A stretch of 22,103 nt of DNA from a virus, in the IMG/VR virus record IMGVR_UViG_2149837019_000031, positions 1 through 22,103 of that record, one strand, 5' to 3'. The notes below the pieces were generated by a model. It was given only the letters and a program-made list of their open reading frames with translations, was not told the origin of the DNA and did not search any database. Shown piece by piece: positions 1-22,103 of this stretch (within the stretch, counting starts at the first letter, position 1; every line of letters starts with the position of its first letter). The translations under genes were made by a program, and so were the position numbers.

Positions 1-28
1 TAAAGAGGTTGATTATTGCGCGCGTAAA
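1..28. repeat. Terminal direct repeat or assembly overlap. Bases 1-28 equal 22076-22103, so the window is one closed 22,075-bp genome unit.
   Basis: taaagaggttgattattgcgcgcgtaaa is present at both window ends. The terL reading frame is continuous across the junction. Confidence 0.85.
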
Positions 29-11238: not shown

Positions 11239-12303
11239 ATGGCAACCGAAGAAACTACAATAACCGAGCTAGAATTAGCCGAGGAAGTTTTAGCGGATAT
11301 GGTTATACCCGTCGATACTTCGACCGATACGAAATCGGTAAGTTTAAAACAGCTTCGCGCGTGGTTAGGCTCTAGCCTTCCTACGGGTTTTATTTTGCCC
11401 GCAGTTGGTATAATTGACGACGAACGATTTACACTATTAGACGGTAAAACGTTATCTAAGCAAGGTACATACAGGGCTTTTTGCGCTAAGGTAGAGAAAC
11501 AAGTACAGGCTAGTAACTGGTACGCTTGTACGGAAGAGGAATATAACGCGGATCTTTTAGCGTACGGGCAATGCGGTAAATTTGTAATCGGTACGGACTA
11601 CGTAAGGATACCGACAATAACCCGCTTTATAGGTGCAACAATAACCTTGTCAGAAATAGGAAAGACCTATAAAGAGAGCTTGCCGAATATTACTGATGAG
11701 TTTACAACTCAAAATGATAAATTTTGTACAGGAACAGGTGCTTTTGTTGCTTCTGGAAATGTTACAAGATATACAGTCAATATAGCTAGTGGCGGAAGTG
11801 GTGCAAACGGAGAAAGTTTTGACGCTTCCCGCAGTTCATCAACCTATCAAAACGGGGCAAAAGTTCAACCAGACCACACAAAATACCCTTATTATATGGT
11901 TATATCCACCGAAGGACAGACCGCAGAAGTTCAAATTGATATAAACAAAGTTTATGAGGATTTGAACATAAAAGCAAATAGCGATTTATCAAATGTTACC
12001 GCAAACATTGATTTTGTTGTTGAAAGCTACAATGACGGCGCAAACTGGTATAGATTGTATAAAAGCGGTTGGATTGAACAGGGCGGAAGTGAATTAACCT
12101 ACGTAAATATTAAAACAATAAACTTATTAAAGCCTTATAAAGACGATAGTTTTAAGGTTTTGACTACAGGAAGAAGCTTGGCAAATAGGACTATAAATGT
12201 TGATGCGAGGACAAGTAATACTATACGAGTTGCTTGCCGAAACTACACCGACGGGACTTCCGCGTCAATTTATGATTGGTTTAGTTGTGGACAAGGTGCA
12301 TAA
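11239..12303 (+). CDS. Tail fibre protein with a mosaic C-terminal domain
   Basis: 354 aa with a GAGGAG SD. A G/S/T/N-rich distal part is typical of receptor-binding domains. Codon composition shifts at about 11630. Confidence 0.55.
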   Translation: MATEETTITELELAEEVLADMVIPVDTSTDTKSVSLKQLRAWLGSSLPTGFILPAVGIIDDERFTLLDGKTLSKQGTYRAFCAKVEKQVQASNWYACTEEEYNADLLAYGQCGKFVIGTDYVRIPTITRFIGATITLSEIGKTYKESLPNITDEFTTQNDKFCTGTGAFVASGNVTRYTVNIASGGSGANGESFDASRSSSTYQNGAKVQPDHTKYPYYMVISTEGQTAEVQIDINKVYEDLNIKANSDLSNVTANIDFVVESYNDGANWYRLYKSGWIEQGGSELTYVNIKTINLLKPYKDDSFKVLTTGRSLANRTINVDARTSNTIRVACRNYTDGTSASIYDWFSCGQGA

Positions 12304-15735: not shown

Positions 15736-16653
15736 ATGAAAGACGGAATATACTTTAATTTGCCCGCCGAGGAGTACCACGCACAAAAGCGCCTAACCTC
15801 TACGGGGATCAAAAATTTACTAATTAGCCCTACTACCTTTTGGTTTAATTCGGCTTTTAACCCACTAAGAGAAGAAAAAAAGACTAAAGCGTTAGACGAC
15901 GGCACGATATACCATAAAATTTTATTGGAAGGATCCGAGGCGCTACAGCGTGATTTTGTTGTAATGCCCGAAAGCATAGCGGAGTTAAATAAAAATACCT
16001 CTACCTTTAAGTTATGGAAGTCGGCGCAACCCGAAGGCGCTTTAATCGTTGATCGTAAATATTATAATAAGATCAAAACAAATATAGATTATCTTAACGA
16101 GTGGATCCTACCGCGTATTTTAACGGACGGCTACGCCGAAGTATCTATATTATGGACGGATAAAAACGGTATAAAAAAACAATGCCGATTTGACTACCTA
16201 AAGCGTAATATGTTTATCGATCTAAAGACCTTCGAAAAAAATAGCCCTTGCGATATTAAGACGCACGCGCAAAAACTTTTTTACGCTAATAAAACATTTA
16301 TACAATTACAATTTTATCGGAGTTGCGAGCCTTATATACAGGATCTACCCGTATTTGGCACGCCAGAGCAAGAGCAATTTATAAAAGAATTGGATTTACA
16401 AGGCCAAGCCGTTTTATACGTAGATCGAAACCTACCGCACAGCAGATTTTTTAAATACTCGGCCGAGGGTAGCCCTAACCTATGGCAATTAGGCGAGGAA
16501 AGTATAGCCAGAGCGGAGCGTTTATTTTTGGATAATTTAGCCAAGTTCGGCGAGCGTTGCGCTTGGTTAGATATGGAGCCTTTAGAAGAGTTTTTAGATG
16601 TAGACTTCCCACAATCATTTTTTAACCTATTGGAGATTAGAGATTATGAATAA
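15736..16653 (+). CDS. PD-(D/E)xK exonuclease, RecE-like (DUF3799/exonuclease VIII-type)
   Basis: N-terminal GIYFNLPAEEYHA and SP..F.. resemble DUF3799 proteins. The D...IDLKT core (RFDYLKRNMFIDLKTF) matches PD-(D/E)xK. TIR is AAGGAGTTAAAAATATG. Confidence 0.55.
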   Translation: MKDGIYFNLPAEEYHAQKRLTSTGIKNLLISPTTFWFNSAFNPLREEKKTKALDDGTIYHKILLEGSEALQRDFVVMPESIAELNKNTSTFKLWKSAQPEGALIVDRKYYNKIKTNIDYLNEWILPRILTDGYAEVSILWTDKNGIKKQCRFDYLKRNMFIDLKTFEKNSPCDIKTHAQKLFYANKTFIQLQFYRSCEPYIQDLPVFGTPEQEQFIKELDLQGQAVLYVDRNLPHSRFFKYSAEGSPNLWQLGEESIARAERLFLDNLAKFGERCAWLDMEPLEEFLDVDFPQSFFNLLEIRDYE

Positions 16654-17620: not shown

Positions 17621-17944
17621 ATGGAAAAAACATTAACAGAAAAACTATTAGATCTATCTACAGAGTTACAAAGAAAATTAAACGAGTTAAGCGAGGAGCG
17701 CGCCGAGTATCTTTTAGAAAAAAACGAGGACGAGTATTTTATATGTTATGATAGCGATAGCGTAGACGTTGGCGTAGGTATGCTAACGGTAAGGAGCGAA
17801 AAAATATTAGATGAAGAGCGCGCCGAAGAGGACGCTAAAGAGGAAATTATAACCGAGGTAGCTAACCTAGAGGATAGTTTTTATTATTTGCTAGAGGATA
17901 ATAAAATTAGTTCATTATTGGCCGACGTTTTGAGGAGTTTGTAA
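17621..17944 (+). CDS. Highly acidic small protein (107 aa, about 30 D/E against about 12 K/R). Candidate DNA-mimic or anti-restriction type protein.
   Basis: First gene after the strong promoter. Its TIR is identical to that of the exonuclease gene. Composition was counted by hand. Confidence 0.5.
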   Translation: MEKTLTEKLLDLSTELQRKLNELSEERAEYLLEKNEDEYFICYDSDSVDVGVGMLTVRSEKILDEERAEEDAKEEIITEVANLEDSFYYLLEDNKISSLLADVLRSL

Positions 17945-18367: not shown

Positions 18368-18602
18368 GCGCAAAGATAACGGCGAGCGCGTTATAGTGCT
18401 TAGACATATAGACCTATGGGATTTAGTCTATTACATAGACGAAGTATTATTTTGTAATGCTATTAGCTACCCAGAATTTAGCGAAAAGTTTACAGCTACA
18501 GGAAGGCAAAATACAGCTATTAAAACTATTTTTAAGGATCAACATTTTGAGGAGATTAAACCCTATGATAATAGAAACAAGAAAAGACTTAATAAAATTT
18601 AG
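18333..18602 (+). CDS. Hypothetical protein, frame C. Only a TTG (18333) or GTG (18396) start is available, and it overlaps frame B.
   Basis: Protein-like from about 18351 (GLEYERKDNGERVIVLRHIDLWDLVYYIDEVLF...). No in-frame ATG. It is reachable from frame B by a +1 shift at the A5 tract 18347-18351. Confidence 0.3.
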   Translation: MSRKLKTGLEYERKDNGERVIVLRHIDLWDLVYYIDEVLFCNAISYPEFSEKFTATGRQNTAIKTIFKDQHFEEIKPYDNRNKKRLNKI

Positions 18603-18930
18603 AAAAAGCCTAAAACAAAGCAAGTGAGAATTTGCCGAAAATGTCGGTTATTCTTATAGTTATATTTGCCAAGTAGAGCGCGGGGCTATAGGATTTTATA
18701 CAGGGCTTAAAAATGCCGTTAATGGTTATAAAATACGCCTAGAGGCCTACGAAAAAGCTAACGGCGCCTATATTGAAACTATGGCGCGTTGTTATTGTGA
18801 TTGCTACGAGGATCACGTACACGAGCAAATAGAGCAAGAGGATAAAGAAGTTAATAGGATCCTTTATTGCTTCGCTTTAATTGCTTTTATTGCTATTGCG
18901 GGGGTTATCTTATGGATTTACAAAAGCTAG
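18565..18930 (+). pseudogene. XRE-family HTH regulator with a C-terminal transmembrane anchor. It is interrupted by an in-frame TGA at 18625-18627 (codon 21), so it is either a nonsense-inactivated or a readthrough-dependent regulator.
   Basis: Hand translation gives MIIETRKDLIKFRKSLKQSK*EFAENVGYSYSYICQVERG...ILYCFALIAFIAIAGVILWIYKS. The TGA sits inside helix 2 of a canonical HTH_XRE motif (consensus ..LSQEELA..GVS...IS.IERG). GAGGAG SD lies upstream. Confidence 0.5.
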
Positions 18931-19133
18931 TTAATCGTATGGCCGAACGCGAGGAGCGTATTATAAAAATGCGCTCCGAAGGAAAAAAGGCAACCATTAA
19001 ATTAACAGAGTTGTATTATCAACAAAAAATAGATATGTATAAACGTTTAAAAGAGGAGTTAAAATTATGCAAGACGCAGAGTTTACCGAATAAAACGAAG
19101 AAGCCCCCGCCTCTAAGGGCGAGCTTGTTTTAG
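18912..19133 (+). CDS. Small coiled-coil hypothetical protein (73 aa)
   Basis: GGGGG SD 7 nt upstream. The N-terminal 50 aa look protein-like, but the C-terminal 20 aa are low in complexity and overlap the 19067 start region. Confidence 0.3.
   Translation: MDLQKLVNRMAEREERIIKMRSEGKKATIKLTELYYQQKIDMYKRLKEELKLCKTQSLPNKTKKPPPLRASLF
19067..19093 (+). CDS. 8-codon ORF (MQDAEFTE) with a perfect TIR, terminated by TAA. The same frame then stays open through 19435.
   Basis: GAGGAGTTAAAATTATG at 19051-19069 matches the conserved TIR used by the other early genes. TAA at 19091-19093. Confidence 0.35.
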   Translation: MQDAEFTE

Positions 19134-19165
19134 TTGAAACGGTGGCCGAAGAGCCTAAAAACACT

Positions 19166-19435
19166 ATGGACGAGATCATAGAGGAAGCCGACGAAAAAAA
19201 TAAAAAGGCTATGATCGAGGATTTACAAGAGTTAGGCGAGAGCTACGAGTACGCCGAGAATCGATTAAAAGAGGCTAAATTAAGTATTAAAAGTATTTTA
19301 GAGGACGCTAAAGACCGCGGTATATCTAAAACAATGTTAGAGGCGTACGTTTCGCTTCGTCGTATGTCTACCTTAGGTAAAAAGGCTATTTTTGGCGCCG
19401 TTGTAGATGACGGCGAAACGGCTAAAGATGAATAG
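19166..19435 (+). CDS. Acidic hypothetical protein. The frame is open from 19094, with possible starts at GTG 19142 or ATG 19166. It may be the body of a gene whose true start is ATG 19067.
   Basis: Open frame of 114 codons from 19094 to 19435, in the same frame as the 19067 ATG. Acidic N-terminal region. No good SD of its own. Confidence 0.4.
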   Translation: MDEIIEEADEKNKKAMIEDLQELGESYEYAENRLKEAKLSIKSILEDAKDRGISKTMLEAYVSLRRMSTLGKKAIFGAVVDDGETAKDE

Positions 19436-19622
19436 CGAGCTAGGAGTAGATATTACCGTACGCAAAGACGTAATTAACGATTGCTTTACCGTTGTTATGT
19501 CTAACGGCTACGATACATTTAACGGCGCTATATCTTTAAAGGATCTAAAAAGATTAGGCGCAGATATTAACAATTTGATCGAAAGAGAAGAGGAAAAAAA
19601 TAAAAATGTTGGAAATATTTAA
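19407..19622 (+). CDS. Hypothetical protein (71 aa, with an alternative start at 19428)
   Basis: ORF with weak SDs at both candidate ATGs. Confidence 0.3.
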   Translation: MTAKRLKMNSELGVDITVRKDVINDCFTVVMSNGYDTFNGAISLKDLKRLGADINNLIEREEEKNKNVGNI

Positions 19623-20031
19623 AGAGGTTGACGAGTTAGTAGAGTTGGCTAGAGAGATCGAGCGCGACGCTATTATTACCGAGATTAAAAAAGAATTGGC
19701 CGAGGTTATGATATGGCACAAAAAGACCTTTAAAGACGCTACCGTAGGCGGGCAGTTGCTTAAACTCGAAGAGGAGTATAAAGAGCTTGCGGAAGCCGTA
19801 GAAAATGAAAACGGCGACGAAACATTTAAAGAGATTGCCGACGTTTTGATAGTATGCGCGGGCTTAGTTCGTTTAAATAGTATTATTGGTAAGGTAAATA
19901 TAGAGGCTACACTTGATAAAATGGAGATTAAGGAGCTTTATAATACTTTAGAGGCTATCCGCGCTAAAATGGAAGTAAACCGCGCCCGCAAGTGGGATAA
20001 ATTAAAAGACGGTAGATTTAAACATAAATAA
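19606..20031 (+). CDS. MazG-like nucleotide pyrophosphohydrolase
   Basis: KLEEEYKELAEAV...ETFKEIADVLIVCAGL and the C-terminal K..VNRARKW match the all-alpha MazG NTP-PPase pattern (EE.gEL...E.gDvL). Confidence 0.5.
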   Translation: MLEIFKEVDELVELAREIERDAIITEIKKELAEVMIWHKKTFKDATVGGQLLKLEEEYKELAEAVENENGDETFKEIADVLIVCAGLVRLNSIIGKVNIEATLDKMEIKELYNTLEAIRAKMEVNRARKWDKLKDGRFKHK

Positions 20032-20035
20032 ACAT

Positions 20036-20060
20036 AGGGGCGCTAACCCGCCCCTTTTTT
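20036..20060 (+). terminator. Rho-independent terminator
   Basis: AGGGGCG-ctaacc-CGCCCCT forms a perfect 7-bp GC stem. It is followed by TTTTT. Confidence 0.7.
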
Positions 20061-20072
20061 GGAGATCATAAT

Positions 20073-20357
20073 ATGAAAAATAGAAACCTTAACGCGGGCG
20101 ACGATTGGAAAACGCCGAGCGATTTATACGAAAAACTAAACCAAGAATTTAATTTTGATTTTGATCCAGATATTAACACTATGCCACGTTGCGACATAGA
20201 GGCCTTAAAAAGCGAAATAAAGCATTTAAAGGAGTTGCTTAAAGAGTGTAAACCTTACATAAGTTATAGTGTTAATAAAAAGAAATATCTTGGATTTACA
20301 CCACCAGAGGCGAATATTTTAACCAAAATAGACAACGCAATAGGAGAAAATAATTGA
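20073..20357 (+). CDS. ORF fusing an N-terminal fragment of a phage Dam-type N6-adenine methyltransferase motif to unrelated sequence (94 aa)
   Basis: DDWKTPSDLYEKLNQEFNFDFD matches the (D/E)EWxTPxxLFxxLxxEFxF N-terminal signature of the phage Dam family. No (D/N)PPY catalytic motif follows. GGAG SD 8 nt upstream. Confidence 0.45.
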   Translation: MKNRNLNAGDDWKTPSDLYEKLNQEFNFDFDPDINTMPRCDIEALKSEIKHLKELLKECKPYISYSVNKKKYLGFTPPEANILTKIDNAIGENN

Positions 20358-20602
20358 TTAAATCACAAGACGATTTAAACCAAGACGACGGAGTAGGCCG
20401 TACAATGACCTTATTAAAGGCTATAGAGCAATTAGAAAAAACAGAGGTAGAGCTTGAGAAGGTGGAAAAGCAATTAAAAATAGCAGTTGAGGCTTTAGAA
20501 GATATAGGTTTTTGTAAGACCTCAATATATCAAAACAGCCCTTTTAAATTAGTTTCTTGGGCAATAGACGCAATCAGTAAAATAAAGGAGTTAGATAAAT
20601 GA
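20354..20602 (+). CDS. Small coiled-coil hypothetical protein. TTG start, with an alternative ATG at 20405.
   Basis: AGGAG 7 nt upstream of TTG 20354, which overlaps the upstream TGA (TTGA). ATGA overlap at the 3' end. Confidence 0.35.
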   Translation: MIKSQDDLNQDDGVGRTMTLLKAIEQLEKTEVELEKVEKQLKIAVEALEDIGFCKTSIYQNSPFKLVSWAIDAISKIKELDK

Positions 20603-20832
20603 TCGAAGTAATATCTACATTTTTTGAAAGTTTAATAGAAACTTTTATAATGAGTTGCTTAGTTATAATATGCTTAATTTTAGGATTGTTAGGCTTTATG
20701 ATCTACCCTATTAAGAAAGCAAGGCTATTTTTGGGTAGGCAATTATACCGAGTAGCCGACACAATGGACTATTATTTAACAGAAACGCTAGTAAAAGACT
20801 ACGAAGAGGATAACAAAAATACGGGGGCTTAA
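20599..20832 (+). CDS. Small membrane protein (77 aa)
   Basis: AAGGAG with an 8-nt spacer. Hydrophobic segment CLVIICLILGLLGFMIY. Confidence 0.45.
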   Translation: MIEVISTFFESLIETFIMSCLVIICLILGLLGFMIYPIKKARLFLGRQLYRVADTMDYYLTETLVKDYEEDNKNTGA

Positions 20833-21329: not shown

Positions 21330-22103
21330 ATGGGCTTCGATTTTAATTTTAGCTTTTTTGGTGCTACGGGATCTACAAATTTATCTTTTTTGGATTTTGT
21401 AGAGCGTAGCGGGTACCCGAAGCCCTACCCTAAACAAATAGAGATGTACGATTTTGCTTTTAGTGGAGAAAATACCCGTATGATCCTAGGCGCCCGCGGT
21501 TATGGTAAGACGGACTATATAACAATTTTAGGCCTTGCCTATTCTATTTATAAGGATCCTAACTATACCGCTATATTGATAACCAAGGAAAGCGAGCGCG
21601 GTAAGGAGTTAGTAGCCGAGATAAAAGAGATATTAAATAAATTTTCGGTAAGATTTAAGAGTAAGGCCAAAAAAAAGATAATTGTAGAAGGTTGTACGGG
21701 TAAAGAGCCTAACCTTATAGCGCTAACGATCAGATCTAAAGGTTTACGCGGACGCCACCCTAAAAAAATCATAATGGACGATCCAATTACACCAGAGGAC
21801 GATAGCCAAGCCGAACGCCGTAGGGCTAAAAAGTGCTACGAGGAGCTATTAAAGCTAACTCAAAACGTACTTATCATAGGGCAACCCGTACACAAGTTAG
21901 ATCTTTACCAAGAATTAAGGACTAAAATTTTAACCCTTTGTGTAATCTACGGAGATATACCCGAATTAGACAAGGATTTAAACGCCTTGCGAGCTTCGGG
22001 CGTAAGTGAGGCCAGTATATCGGCTTCGTATTTTCTAAAGATCCTAGACGATAACACGTTACCACTTGCCAGTATTAAAGAGGTTGATTATTGCGCGCGT
22101 AAA
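21330..22103 (+). CDS. terL: Terminase large subunit, N-terminal ATPase part. It continues at position 29 of the window.
   Basis: ATG at 21330 directly after the terS TAA. Walker A-like LGARGYGKT and IIMDDP motifs. The ORF runs off the window end without a stop. It is absent from the ORF track only because no stop lies inside the window. Confidence 0.8.
   Translation, partial: MGFDFNFSFFGATGSTNLSFLDFVERSGYPKPYPKQIEMYDFAFSGENTRMILGARGYGKTDYITILGLAYSIYKDPNYTAILITKESERGKELVAEIKEILNKFSVRFKSKAKKKIIVEGCTGKEPNLIALTIRSKGLRGRHPKKIIMDDPITPEDDSQAERRRAKKCYEELLKLTQNVLIIGQPVHKLDLYQELRTKILTLCVIYGDIPELDKDLNALRASGVSEASISASYFLKILDDNTLPLASIKEVDYCARK
22076..22103. repeat. Second copy of the 28-nt terminal repeat
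   Basis: Identical to positions 1-28. Confidence 0.85.

What the first reader, a model, noticed from the sequence alone, without database searches (positions are those of the whole stretch)
19052..19435. Canonical translation start, 8 codons, TAA, then 114 open codons in the same frame encoding an acidic protein
GAGGAGTTAAAATTATG matches the conserved TIR of the other early genes (AAGGAGTTAAAAATATG), so ATG 19067 looks like a genuine start. The frame hits TAA at 19091-19093 and then remains open to 19435, coding an acidic protein with no convincing SD of its own. Either a second early gene has a premature stop (alongside the XRE gene), or this is an 8-aa leader peptide that regulates the downstream cistron. 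The restored 122-aa product would be strongly acidic, like the 17621 protein.
Basis: seen in the sequence. Interest (0 to 1): 0.6.

Follow-up and report, generated by a model that had tools for sequence, protein, structure and literature searches.

The report
Six-base deletion breaks a phage early gene
The "8 codons, stop, then a long open frame" is a conserved 123-124-residue early phage gene cut by a real 6-base deletion found only in this one phage clone, so it is an ordinary gene-disrupting mutation and not a regulatory leader peptide or a sequencing error.

Summary
SD GAGGAG lies at 19053-58 and ATG at 19067. Eight codons (MQDAEFTE) follow, then TAA at 19091-93, then 113 sense codons to TAG 19433-35.

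Nineteen homologues (63-97% identical, 115-125 aa when complete) start at the same ATG and read straight through (MQDAEFTELEENEEAPASKG...). The closest intact allele reads CCGAAT[TAGAAG]AAAAC. Removing TAGAAG reproduces the window exactly over 241 nt.

That TAG is the stop of the overlapping upstream 60-aa gene. One deletion therefore extends the upstream product to 73 aa (new stop 19131-33) and creates TAA in codon 9 of the downstream gene.

The allele is real. The 73-aa product specific to it is on 14 contigs, and four loci from four sample accessions and several assemblers are 100% identical to the window.

It is not conserved, so it is not an evolved leader peptide. No tRNA gene was found in the window, and TAA ends 26 of 43 called genes.

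The family's conserved ~80-aa helical domain begins exactly at ATG 19166, but that start has no usable SD. Expression is probably lost or weak.

Of 42 shared genes tested, only this one and the XRE-type gene two genes upstream (CGA>TGA, 18625-27) carry in-frame stops. These two genes are neighbours in four relatives and fused in distant ones.

The parts
18565..18930 (+). XRE-type HTH gene with a C-terminal hydrophobic helix. It is 121-122 aa in relatives. In the window it is broken at codon 21 by CGA>TGA (18625-18627), and the frame then stays open to 18930.
   Evidence: The DNA alignment and the translation of the relative are. tblastn shows one in-frame stop. This gene lies upstream of the acidic gene in L001, L016, L015 and L017.
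18912..19133 (+). Small basic early gene. It is 60 aa in most relatives and 43 aa in the A7 variants. In the window it is 73 aa, because the deletion removed its TAG stop. The new stop is TAG 19131-19133.
   Evidence: The exact 73-aa product is on 14 contigs.
19053..19058 (+). Shine-Dalgarno GAGGAG of the acidic gene. It lies inside the upstream gene.
   Evidence: The equivalent SD plus ATG is present in relatives L001, L006, L017 and L018 (AGGAG-type), with a weaker AAAGG in L015.
19067..19093 (+). Vestigial 5' end of the acidic early gene: ATG, 8 codons (MQDAEFTE), then TAA created at the deletion junction between 19091 and 19092.
19094..19165 (+). Orphaned codons for the acidic N-terminal tail, which is predicted to be disordered. 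Includes GTG 19142, the first possible in-frame restart, which has no SD.
   Evidence: pLDDT below 50 for residues 1-31 of the intact homologue.
19166..19435 (+). Intact coding sequence of the family's conserved ~80-aa helical domain (89 aa from ATG 19166). Gene callers annotate this stretch as the gene. There is no SD at working distance.
   Evidence: Alignment A5, the profile search, the structure model, the gene calls in L011-L014, and the P0037 and P0038 records.

Best explanation
The window is the complete, circularly permuted genome of a roughly 22.1-kb gut phage clone. Its relatives carry a conserved early gene of 123-124 codons. The product has an acidic, disordered N-terminal tail of about 33 residues followed by an ~80-residue helical domain of unknown function.

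Its first 28 nt overlap the end of a small basic 60-aa gene.

In this clone a single 6-nt deletion (TAGAAG) inside that overlap did two things. It removed the upstream gene's TAG, so that product now runs 13 residues further to 19133. It also joined T and AA into a TAA at codon 9 of the downstream gene. The 8-codon ORF is therefore the stranded head of a broken gene, not an evolved leader peptide.

Shown: the deletion, its reality, its restriction to this clone, its effect on both frames, and the intact domain-coding remainder.

Inferred: ribosomes that start at 19067 terminate at 19093. The remaining domain could be made only from GTG 19142 or ATG 19166. Neither has a usable SD, so any product would depend on inefficient re-initiation after the extended upstream ORF stops at 19133, which is 8 nt before the GTG and 32 nt before the ATG. 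My estimate is about 60% effectively null and about 40% a low level of an N-terminally truncated domain-only protein.

The XRE-type gene two genes upstream, next to the acidic gene in four relatives, carries a separate nonsense mutation. The clone has most likely lost the whole XRE/acidic-protein pair without losing viability.
For: - **Homologues are intact.** There are 19 homologues. The 17 complete ones are 115-125 aa, and nearly all span the whole restored protein. All 19 begin M-x-D/E-x-D/E-F/Y-x-E, and every one that carries this region reads through the site.
- **A single deletion explains the sequence.** L006-L009 read CCGAATTAGAAGAAAACGAAGAAGCC. Deleting TAGAAG gives the window with 0 mismatches over 241 nt (18975-19215), and only one placement is possible.
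- **The deleted TAG is the upstream stop.** In the upstream frame the intact allele reads LPN* and the window reads LPNKTKKPP.... Upstream products are 60 aa in relatives.
- **The allele is real.** The 73-aa product is found on 14 contigs. L011-L014 come from Logan ERR011169 and ENA ERZ1303981, ERZ916482 and ERZ501706, built with SPAdes-type, k127 (MEGAHIT-style) and Logan assemblers. All are 100.000% identical to the window over up to 20 kb.
- **It is restricted to one clone.** In the 90% cluster of 29 members, only P0037 and P0038 (the window's own forms) among the 15 listed lack the N-terminus.
- **There is no recoding machinery.** No tRNA genes were found, and TAA, TAG and TGA end 26, 8 and 9 of the 43 called genes.
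- **The lesions are localised.** Only 2 of 42 shared genes carry in-frame stops.
- **The domain boundary is at M34.** Stand-alone homologues start there (P0031, P0032, P0033, P0035, P0036). Others carry an XRE HTH or a zinc ribbon in place of the acidic tail.
- **The gene is dispensable elsewhere.** It is independently truncated by a Dam-module swap in L019 and L020.
Against: - All contigs with the allele are identical. They may trace to one clone, or even to related cohorts or one sequencing centre. They prove the sequence but not long-term persistence.
- Nothing here measures translation, so null and truncated product cannot be separated.
- The N-terminal tail carries conserved motifs in relatives (nearly invariant D3, E5, E8, K17, G18, L20-L22, E24). 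Its loss is probably not neutral for the protein's function.
- Two lesions falling within three adjacent genes could be coincidence, at roughly 1 in 10 for random placement among about 45 genes.
Confidence: 0.85

Rival explanations
1. Sequencing or assembly error: the true genome carries a sense codon and the stop is an artefact.
For: The window comes from a metagenome assembly, and two early genes in it carry stops. That would be the pattern of a low-quality assembly.
Against: The same 6-nt deletion and the same TGA occur in contigs from four sample accessions, with at least two named runs (ERR011169, ERR321143). They come from Logan, SPAdes-type and k127 (MEGAHIT-style) assemblies, one at about 15x coverage, and all are 100% identical. 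A clean 6-nt deletion is not a typical short-read error. The other 40 shared genes tested are intact.
Confidence: 0.02
2. An evolved 8-aa leader peptide (regulatory upstream ORF) controls translation of a downstream cistron that has its own start.
For: A strong SD plus ATG is followed by a very short ORF just upstream of a longer ORF. Distant family members do start at the equivalent of ATG 19166.
Against: No relative has the stop, and all close relatives use this ATG as the start of one continuous gene. There is no SD before 19142 or 19166. The RNA fold is not exceptional, z = -1.0. The allele differs from the intact one by a single recent event, with no compensating changes in 241 nt.
Confidence: 0.03
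3. Recoding: TAA (and the TGA in the XRE gene) is read through or reassigned, so full-length proteins are still made.
For: Two early genes have early in-frame stops with long open frames behind them. From my own knowledge, some gut phages do reassign stop codons.
Against: TAA is the normal terminator of 26 of 43 genes, and TGA of 9. Only 2 of 42 genes have internal stops, and these are two different codons. There is no suppressor tRNA. Relatives have ordinary sense codons at the site, and the stop arose from a deletion junction.
Confidence: 0.03
4. Adaptive remodelling: the deletion was selected because it yields a domain-only protein, made by termination-reinitiation after the extended upstream ORF, and/or a longer upstream protein. 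It would then be a change of function, not a loss.
For: The remaining ORF contains the complete conserved domain and starts where natural stand-alone homologues start. The new upstream stop at 19131-33 lies 8 nt before GTG 19142 and 32 nt before ATG 19166. The clone is found repeatedly as a complete genome.
Against: There is no SD at either restart, whereas the stand-alone homologue in L022 has an AAAGG upstream. No compensatory change has occurred. The adjacent XRE-type gene is knocked out too, which fits loss of the module better than remodelling. A different lineage simply truncates the gene.
Confidence: 0.25

Closest known systems
Natural nonsense or deletion alleles (pseudogenes) of accessory phage early genes
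   Same: A conserved gene is interrupted near its 5' end in one lineage. The rest of the frame is still intact because the event is recent. The phage remains viable.
   Different: The stop does not come from a base substitution. It is created at the junction of a 6-nt in-frame deletion. Because the site lies in a 28-nt gene overlap, the same event also deletes the neighbouring gene's stop codon.
Leader peptides and regulatory upstream ORFs (for example the erm and cat leaders and attenuation leaders; from my own knowledge)
   Same: A strong ribosome-binding site drives a peptide of fewer than 10 codons immediately upstream of a longer ORF.
   Different: It is not conserved in any relative. No regulatory RNA structure was found. 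The 'downstream cistron' has no ribosome-binding site of its own. The short ORF is the truncated head of the same gene.
Translational coupling by termination-reinitiation at overlapping or adjacent bacterial genes (from my own knowledge)
   Same: The extended upstream ORF now stops 8 nt before an in-frame GTG and 32 nt before the ATG that opens the conserved domain. This is the only plausible route to any residual product.
   Different: Neither restart codon has an SD, and nothing shows that coupling actually occurs. In the intact relatives, coupling uses a classical SD inside the upstream gene.
XRE-family HTH regulators with a partner or fused effector domain
   Same: The acidic gene lies downstream of an XRE-type HTH gene in four relatives (L001, L016, L015, L017). 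Its domain is fused to an XRE HTH in P0023, P0026 and P0030 and in the 'HTH XrE protein' XCD03727.1 of Dulem virus 29.
   Different: The window protein itself has no HTH. The ~80-aa domain matches no Pfam family above threshold and no solved structure.

Membership tests
Disrupted allele (pseudogene) of a conserved protein-coding gene | Homologues encode one uninterrupted protein across the site, starting at the same start codon. | tested here: met
   There are 19 homologues; the 17 complete ones are 115-125 aa. All 19 start at the equivalent ATG with an SD, and every one that carries this region reads through the site.
Disrupted allele (pseudogene) of a conserved protein-coding gene | The lesion is explained by a simple mutational event and is restricted to one lineage. 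| tested here: met
   A single TAGAAG deletion reproduces the window over 241 nt. Only the window's clone carries it.
Sequencing or assembly artefact | The lesion is not reproducible in independent data. | tested here: not met
   The sequence is identical in contigs from ERR011169, ERZ1303981, ERZ916482 (ERR321143) and ERZ501706, built with different assemblers. Raw reads could not be inspected.
Regulatory leader peptide / upstream ORF | The short ORF and its stop are conserved among relatives. | tested here: not met
   None of the homologues that carry this region has a stop there.
Regulatory leader peptide / upstream ORF | A regulatory RNA structure, or an independent ribosome-binding site for the downstream cistron. 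| tested here: not met
   The RNA fold of 19040-19200 has z = -1.03. There is no SD before GTG 19142 or ATG 19166.
Stop-codon reassignment or programmed read-through | The same stop codon recurs in-frame in many genes and is avoided as a terminator. | tested here: not met
   TAA terminates 26 of 43 genes. Only 2 of 42 genes have an internal stop, one TAA and one TGA.
Stop-codon reassignment or programmed read-through | A phage-encoded suppressor tRNA. | tested here: not met
   ARAGORN finds no tRNA in the window.
Stop-codon reassignment or programmed read-through | A full-length product is detectable. | not testable with these tools
   This needs proteomics or ribosome profiling of infected cells. 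The host is unknown.
GapR / DUF2312 DNA-binding proteins (a lead from memory) | Profile similarity to the family. | tested here: not met
   There is no Pfam hit to DUF2312.
XRE-family HTH regulator | An HTH_3-type domain in the protein itself. | tested here: not met
   The window protein and its close homologues give no HTH hit. Only the fused distant homologues do (HTH_3, E = 1e-11), together with the gene at 18565.

The most novel reading that the evidence does not exclude
The two lesions may be linked. The membrane-anchored XRE-type regulator and the acidic helical-domain protein would form one early regulatory module. They are neighbours in four relatives and fused in distant phages. This clone would then be a natural double knock-out, an escape or 'derepressed' variant that still spreads as a complete genome in human gut samples. 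The ~80-aa domain would be a new, uncharacterised partner or effector domain of phage XRE regulators. It occurs alone or behind an acidic tail, an XRE HTH or a zinc ribbon.
Probability: 0.2. Interest if true: 0.4.

Novelty: already known. Interest (0 to 1): 0.2.

Why it matters
The main value is for annotation. The gene at 19166-19435 (or 19142-19435) in public records of this genome is the tail of a broken gene. The 73-aa upstream product is a mutant form of a 60-aa protein.

The finding also gives a clean example of a single small deletion inside a gene overlap that moves a stop codon from one reading frame to the other.

The biological lead is modest. A small, uncharacterised phage domain family (18 representatives at E <= 1e-3 among 1.84 billion) is linked to XRE regulators by gene neighbourhood and by fusion. 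It is dispensable in at least two lineages.

Tried and rejected
- **DNA search of 18600-20100 against GenBank phages:** no match.
- **tblastn against phages:** only Dulem virus 29, 38% identity over the domain.
- **IMG/VR, JGI metagenome and GTDB genome scans.** I scanned with the protein, with its profile, with exact DNA patterns for both alleles, and with the endolysin. None gave any relative, so no host or prophage context was obtained.
- **Function of the domain.** Pfam and PHROGs gave nothing for it: weak PIN_12 at E = 0.068 and unknown-function phrog_7847 and phrog_8743 at E about 1e-3.
- **Solved structures.** The PDB sequence-profile search had a best E of 0.066, a colicin N helix. Foldseek of the AF2 model against PDB had a best E of 4.4. 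The model is a long helix plus a short helix with mean pLDDT 64, which is too simple for a fold assignment.
- **GapR/DUF2312 idea from memory:** rejected, hhalign probability 9.6%.
- **Suppressor tRNA:** none.
- **Regulatory RNA structure around the site:** none.
- **Programmed frameshift from the upstream gene into the open frame.** I considered a CCCCC run and the -1 geometry. The idea is unnecessary once the intact alleles showed two separate overlapping genes.
- **Putative ancestor protein.** An exact look-up of the window sequence with LEE restored found it is not in the collection.
- **97-aa GTG-start product.** It was not found by the encoding-contig look-up, but it exists as the JGI/IMG annotation of a 22103-nt contig.

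Full report
**The observation**

The sequence is as described.
- GAGGAG lies at 19053-19058 and ATG at 19067-19069.
- Eight codons follow (MQDAEFTE), then TAA at 19091-19093.
- The same frame then stays open for 113 sense codons to TAG 19433-19435.

The start region matches the motif used by other early genes. AAGGAGTTAAAAAT-ATG precedes the genes at 15736 and 17621, and near-variants precede 14910(-), 16759 and 20599.

With the window's stop-trinucleotide frequency of 0.071, an open run of 113 codons has a chance probability of about 2e-4. The restored product is acidic, with pI 4.46.

A second ORF in another frame (ATG 18912) runs across this start and ends at 19133. This turned out to be the key to the anatomy.

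**What homologues show**

I searched 5.8 billion proteins with the restored 122-aa sequence and found 19 homologues at 63-97% identity. The complete ones are 115-125 aa, and nearly all span the whole query.

All 19 begin at the equivalent methionine, and every one that carries this region reads straight through the site. The consensus is MQDAEFTELEENEAPASKGELVLVE....

The SD plus ATG is also present in the more diverged relatives L015, L017 and L018. The ATG at 19067 is therefore the genuine, conserved start of a single gene of about 123 codons. The stop is the exception.

**The lesion**

The closest intact allele (loci L006-L009, encoding P0002) reads CCGAATTAGAAGAAAACGAAGAAGCCCCC. The window reads CCGAATAAAACGAAGAAGCCCCC.

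Deleting the hexamer TAGAAG from L007-L009 reproduces the window with no mismatch over 241 nt (18975-19215). This is the only 6-nt deletion that does so. The junction lies between 19091 and 19092.

In the intact allele the downstream frame reads T-E-L-E-E-N-E-E-A-P and the upstream frame reads L-P-N-stop. In the window they read T-E-stop-N-E-E-A-P and L-P-N-K-T-K-K-P-P.

One event therefore removed the stop of the upstream small basic gene and created TAA in codon 9 of the downstream gene. The upstream gene is 60 aa in most relatives and 73 aa here, ending at TAG 19131-19133.

**Real or artefact**

The 73-aa upstream product can only arise from the deletion allele. It is on record on 14 contigs.

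Four loci were retrieved: Logan ERR011169 and ENA ERZ1303981, ERZ916482 (run ERR321143, human gut) and ERZ501706. All are 100.000% identical to the window over 2.9-20 kb, including the deletion.

Different runs and assemblers agree, so this is not a base-call or assembly error.

The same comparison shows that the first and last 28 nt of the window are identical, and that L011-L013 run across the junction. The window is therefore a complete, circularly permuted genome of about 22,075 bp.

All these contigs are identical. They document one clone, and possibly related cohorts. They do not show long persistence.

**Not a conserved device, not recoding**

No relative has the short ORF. No compensatory change has accumulated around the site. 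The RNA of 19040-19200 folds no better than shuffles, z = -1.03.

ARAGORN finds no tRNA in the genome. TAA, TAG and TGA terminate 26, 8 and 9 of the 43 called genes.

I ran tblastn with the products of 42 genes of relatives against the window. Only two have an in-frame stop. One is this gene. The other is the XRE-type gene at 18565-18930, where codon 21 is TGA (18625-18627) in place of the CGA of relatives.

**What the protein is**

A profile of the family searched against 1.84 billion representatives finds only 18 proteins at E <= 1e-3.

Their alignment shows a conserved domain of about 80 residues (...NTMEEVxxEADEKNKK...KSIxExAKxxGITKxMIxxY...). It begins exactly at the window's M34, which is ATG 19166.

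What lies in front of the domain varies between family members:
- The acidic tail, in this clade.
- An XRE HTH in P0023, P0026 and P0030 (HTH_3, E = 1e-11), and in the 'HTH XrE protein' of the 23.5-kb circular Dulem virus 29.
- A CxxC...CxxC zinc ribbon, in P0024 and P0028.
- Nothing at all, in P0031, P0032, P0033, P0035 and P0036. One of these sits in a 24.5-kb contig and has its own AAAGG upstream.

AlphaFold2 on the intact homologue gives a disordered N-terminus (residues 1-31, pLDDT below 50), a long helix at 35-85 and a second helix at 90-106. Mean pLDDT is 64.

The domain is not assigned to any Pfam or PHROG family of known function, to any PDB sequence or to any PDB fold. A remembered resemblance to GapR/DUF2312 failed the test, with hhalign probability 9.6%.

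**Consequence in this clone (inferred)**

Ribosomes recruited by the strong SD make an 8-residue peptide and terminate.

The complete domain is still encoded (19166-19435). The only in-frame starts are GTG 19142 and ATG 19166, and neither has an SD at working distance. Relatives also show no conserved internal SD before the equivalent methionine.

The only plausible route to a product is re-initiation after the extended upstream ORF stops at 19133, which is 8 nt before the GTG and 32 nt before the ATG. From my own knowledge, this is inefficient in bacteria without an SD.

My estimate is about 60% a functional null and about 40% a low level of a domain-only protein.

The tail that is lost carries conserved residues in relatives: D3, E5, E8, K17, G18, L20-L22 and E24. 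Any such product would therefore not be equivalent to the wild type.

**Context**

An XRE-type gene with a C-terminal hydrophobic helix sits upstream of the acidic gene in L001 and L016, separated by the small basic gene, and directly upstream in L015 and L017. Distant homologues fuse the two domains.

This clone has early stops in both genes. That is consistent with loss of one two-part module, but coincidence is not excluded. It would occur roughly 1 time in 10 for two random lesions among about 45 genes.

In another lineage (L019 and L020, two samples) the acidic gene is cut at about residue 73 by a Dam-methylase module swap, while the XRE-type gene stays intact. The acidic protein is therefore dispensable in at least two lineages.

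**Verdict**

The 'premature stop in a second early gene' reading is correct, with the correction that the cause is a 6-nt deletion in a gene overlap. The leader-peptide and base-call-error readings are rejected.

The phenomenon is an ordinary gene disruption, of interest mainly for annotation. It also gives a small lead on an uncharacterised domain associated with XRE regulators.

Noticed in passing
window 18565-18930 (TGA at 18625-18627): The XRE-type HTH gene with a C-terminal hydrophobic helix (121-122 aa in relatives) has CGA>TGA at codon 21. About 100 open codons lie behind the stop. It and the acidic gene are the only two of 42 shared genes with in-frame stops. The two genes are neighbours in four relatives and fused in distant ones.
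   Followed up: partly
window 1-28 and 22076-22103: The first and last 28 nt are identical, and other contigs run across the junction. The window is a complete circularly permuted genome of about 22,075 bp. The 410-aa gene that starts at 21330 continues into position 487.
   Followed up: yes
window 19024-19029: A poly-A tract in the small upstream gene is A6 in the window and in L006-L010 (60-aa product) but A7 in L001-L005 (43-aa product ending ...QQKNRYV). This homopolymer length polymorphism changes the C-terminus among natural variants.
   Followed up: partly
window 18964-18974: There is a cluster of six substitutions within 11 nt in the small upstream gene (IKSIRS in all relatives examined, IIKMRS in the window), in otherwise identical flanks. 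It may be a small recombination or multi-nucleotide mutation patch.
   Followed up: no
window 20073-20832: This is a variable module region. ORF 20073-20357 matches only the first ~30 residues of Dam-type methyltransferases (PF05869, E = 0.0017). Relatives carry a 201- or 229-aa N6_N4_Mtase (L001, L006) or a 139-aa Dam (L019) in this region. The ORF may be a methylase remnant.
   Followed up: no
L019 3001-3670 and L020 628-1297: In another lineage of 23.3-23.7-kb genomes, the acidic gene is truncated at about residue 73. A Dam methylase module follows immediately and replaces the gene's 3' half and the next two genes.
   Followed up: partly
window 11239-12303 and 17621-17944: Against relatives that are otherwise 95-99% identical at protein level, the 354-aa gene is only 76% identical and the acidic 107-aa gene at 17621 only 79%, with gaps. 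These are local hot spots of divergence. The first lies among the genes between the capsid-related block and the lysis gene and may concern host range.
   Followed up: no
L022 2426-2500: Directly upstream of the stand-alone 86-aa domain gene there is an uncalled 24-codon ORF for a hydrophobic peptide (MSDFLTGILTAILLIIVYQIMKGF). It recalls the hydrophobic C-terminal helix of the XRE-type gene.
   Followed up: no
whole window: This phage group was found only in ENA and Logan assemblies. There were no relatives in the GTDB species genomes, the IMG/VR scan, the JGI metagenome scan or the GenBank phage collection, apart from the distant Dulem virus 29. The host remains unknown. A 305-aa DUF3799 protein, a DUF968 protein, a MazG-like pyrophosphatase and a Hydrolase_2 lysin are encoded, and no integrase was seen among the gene calls.
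   Followed up: partly
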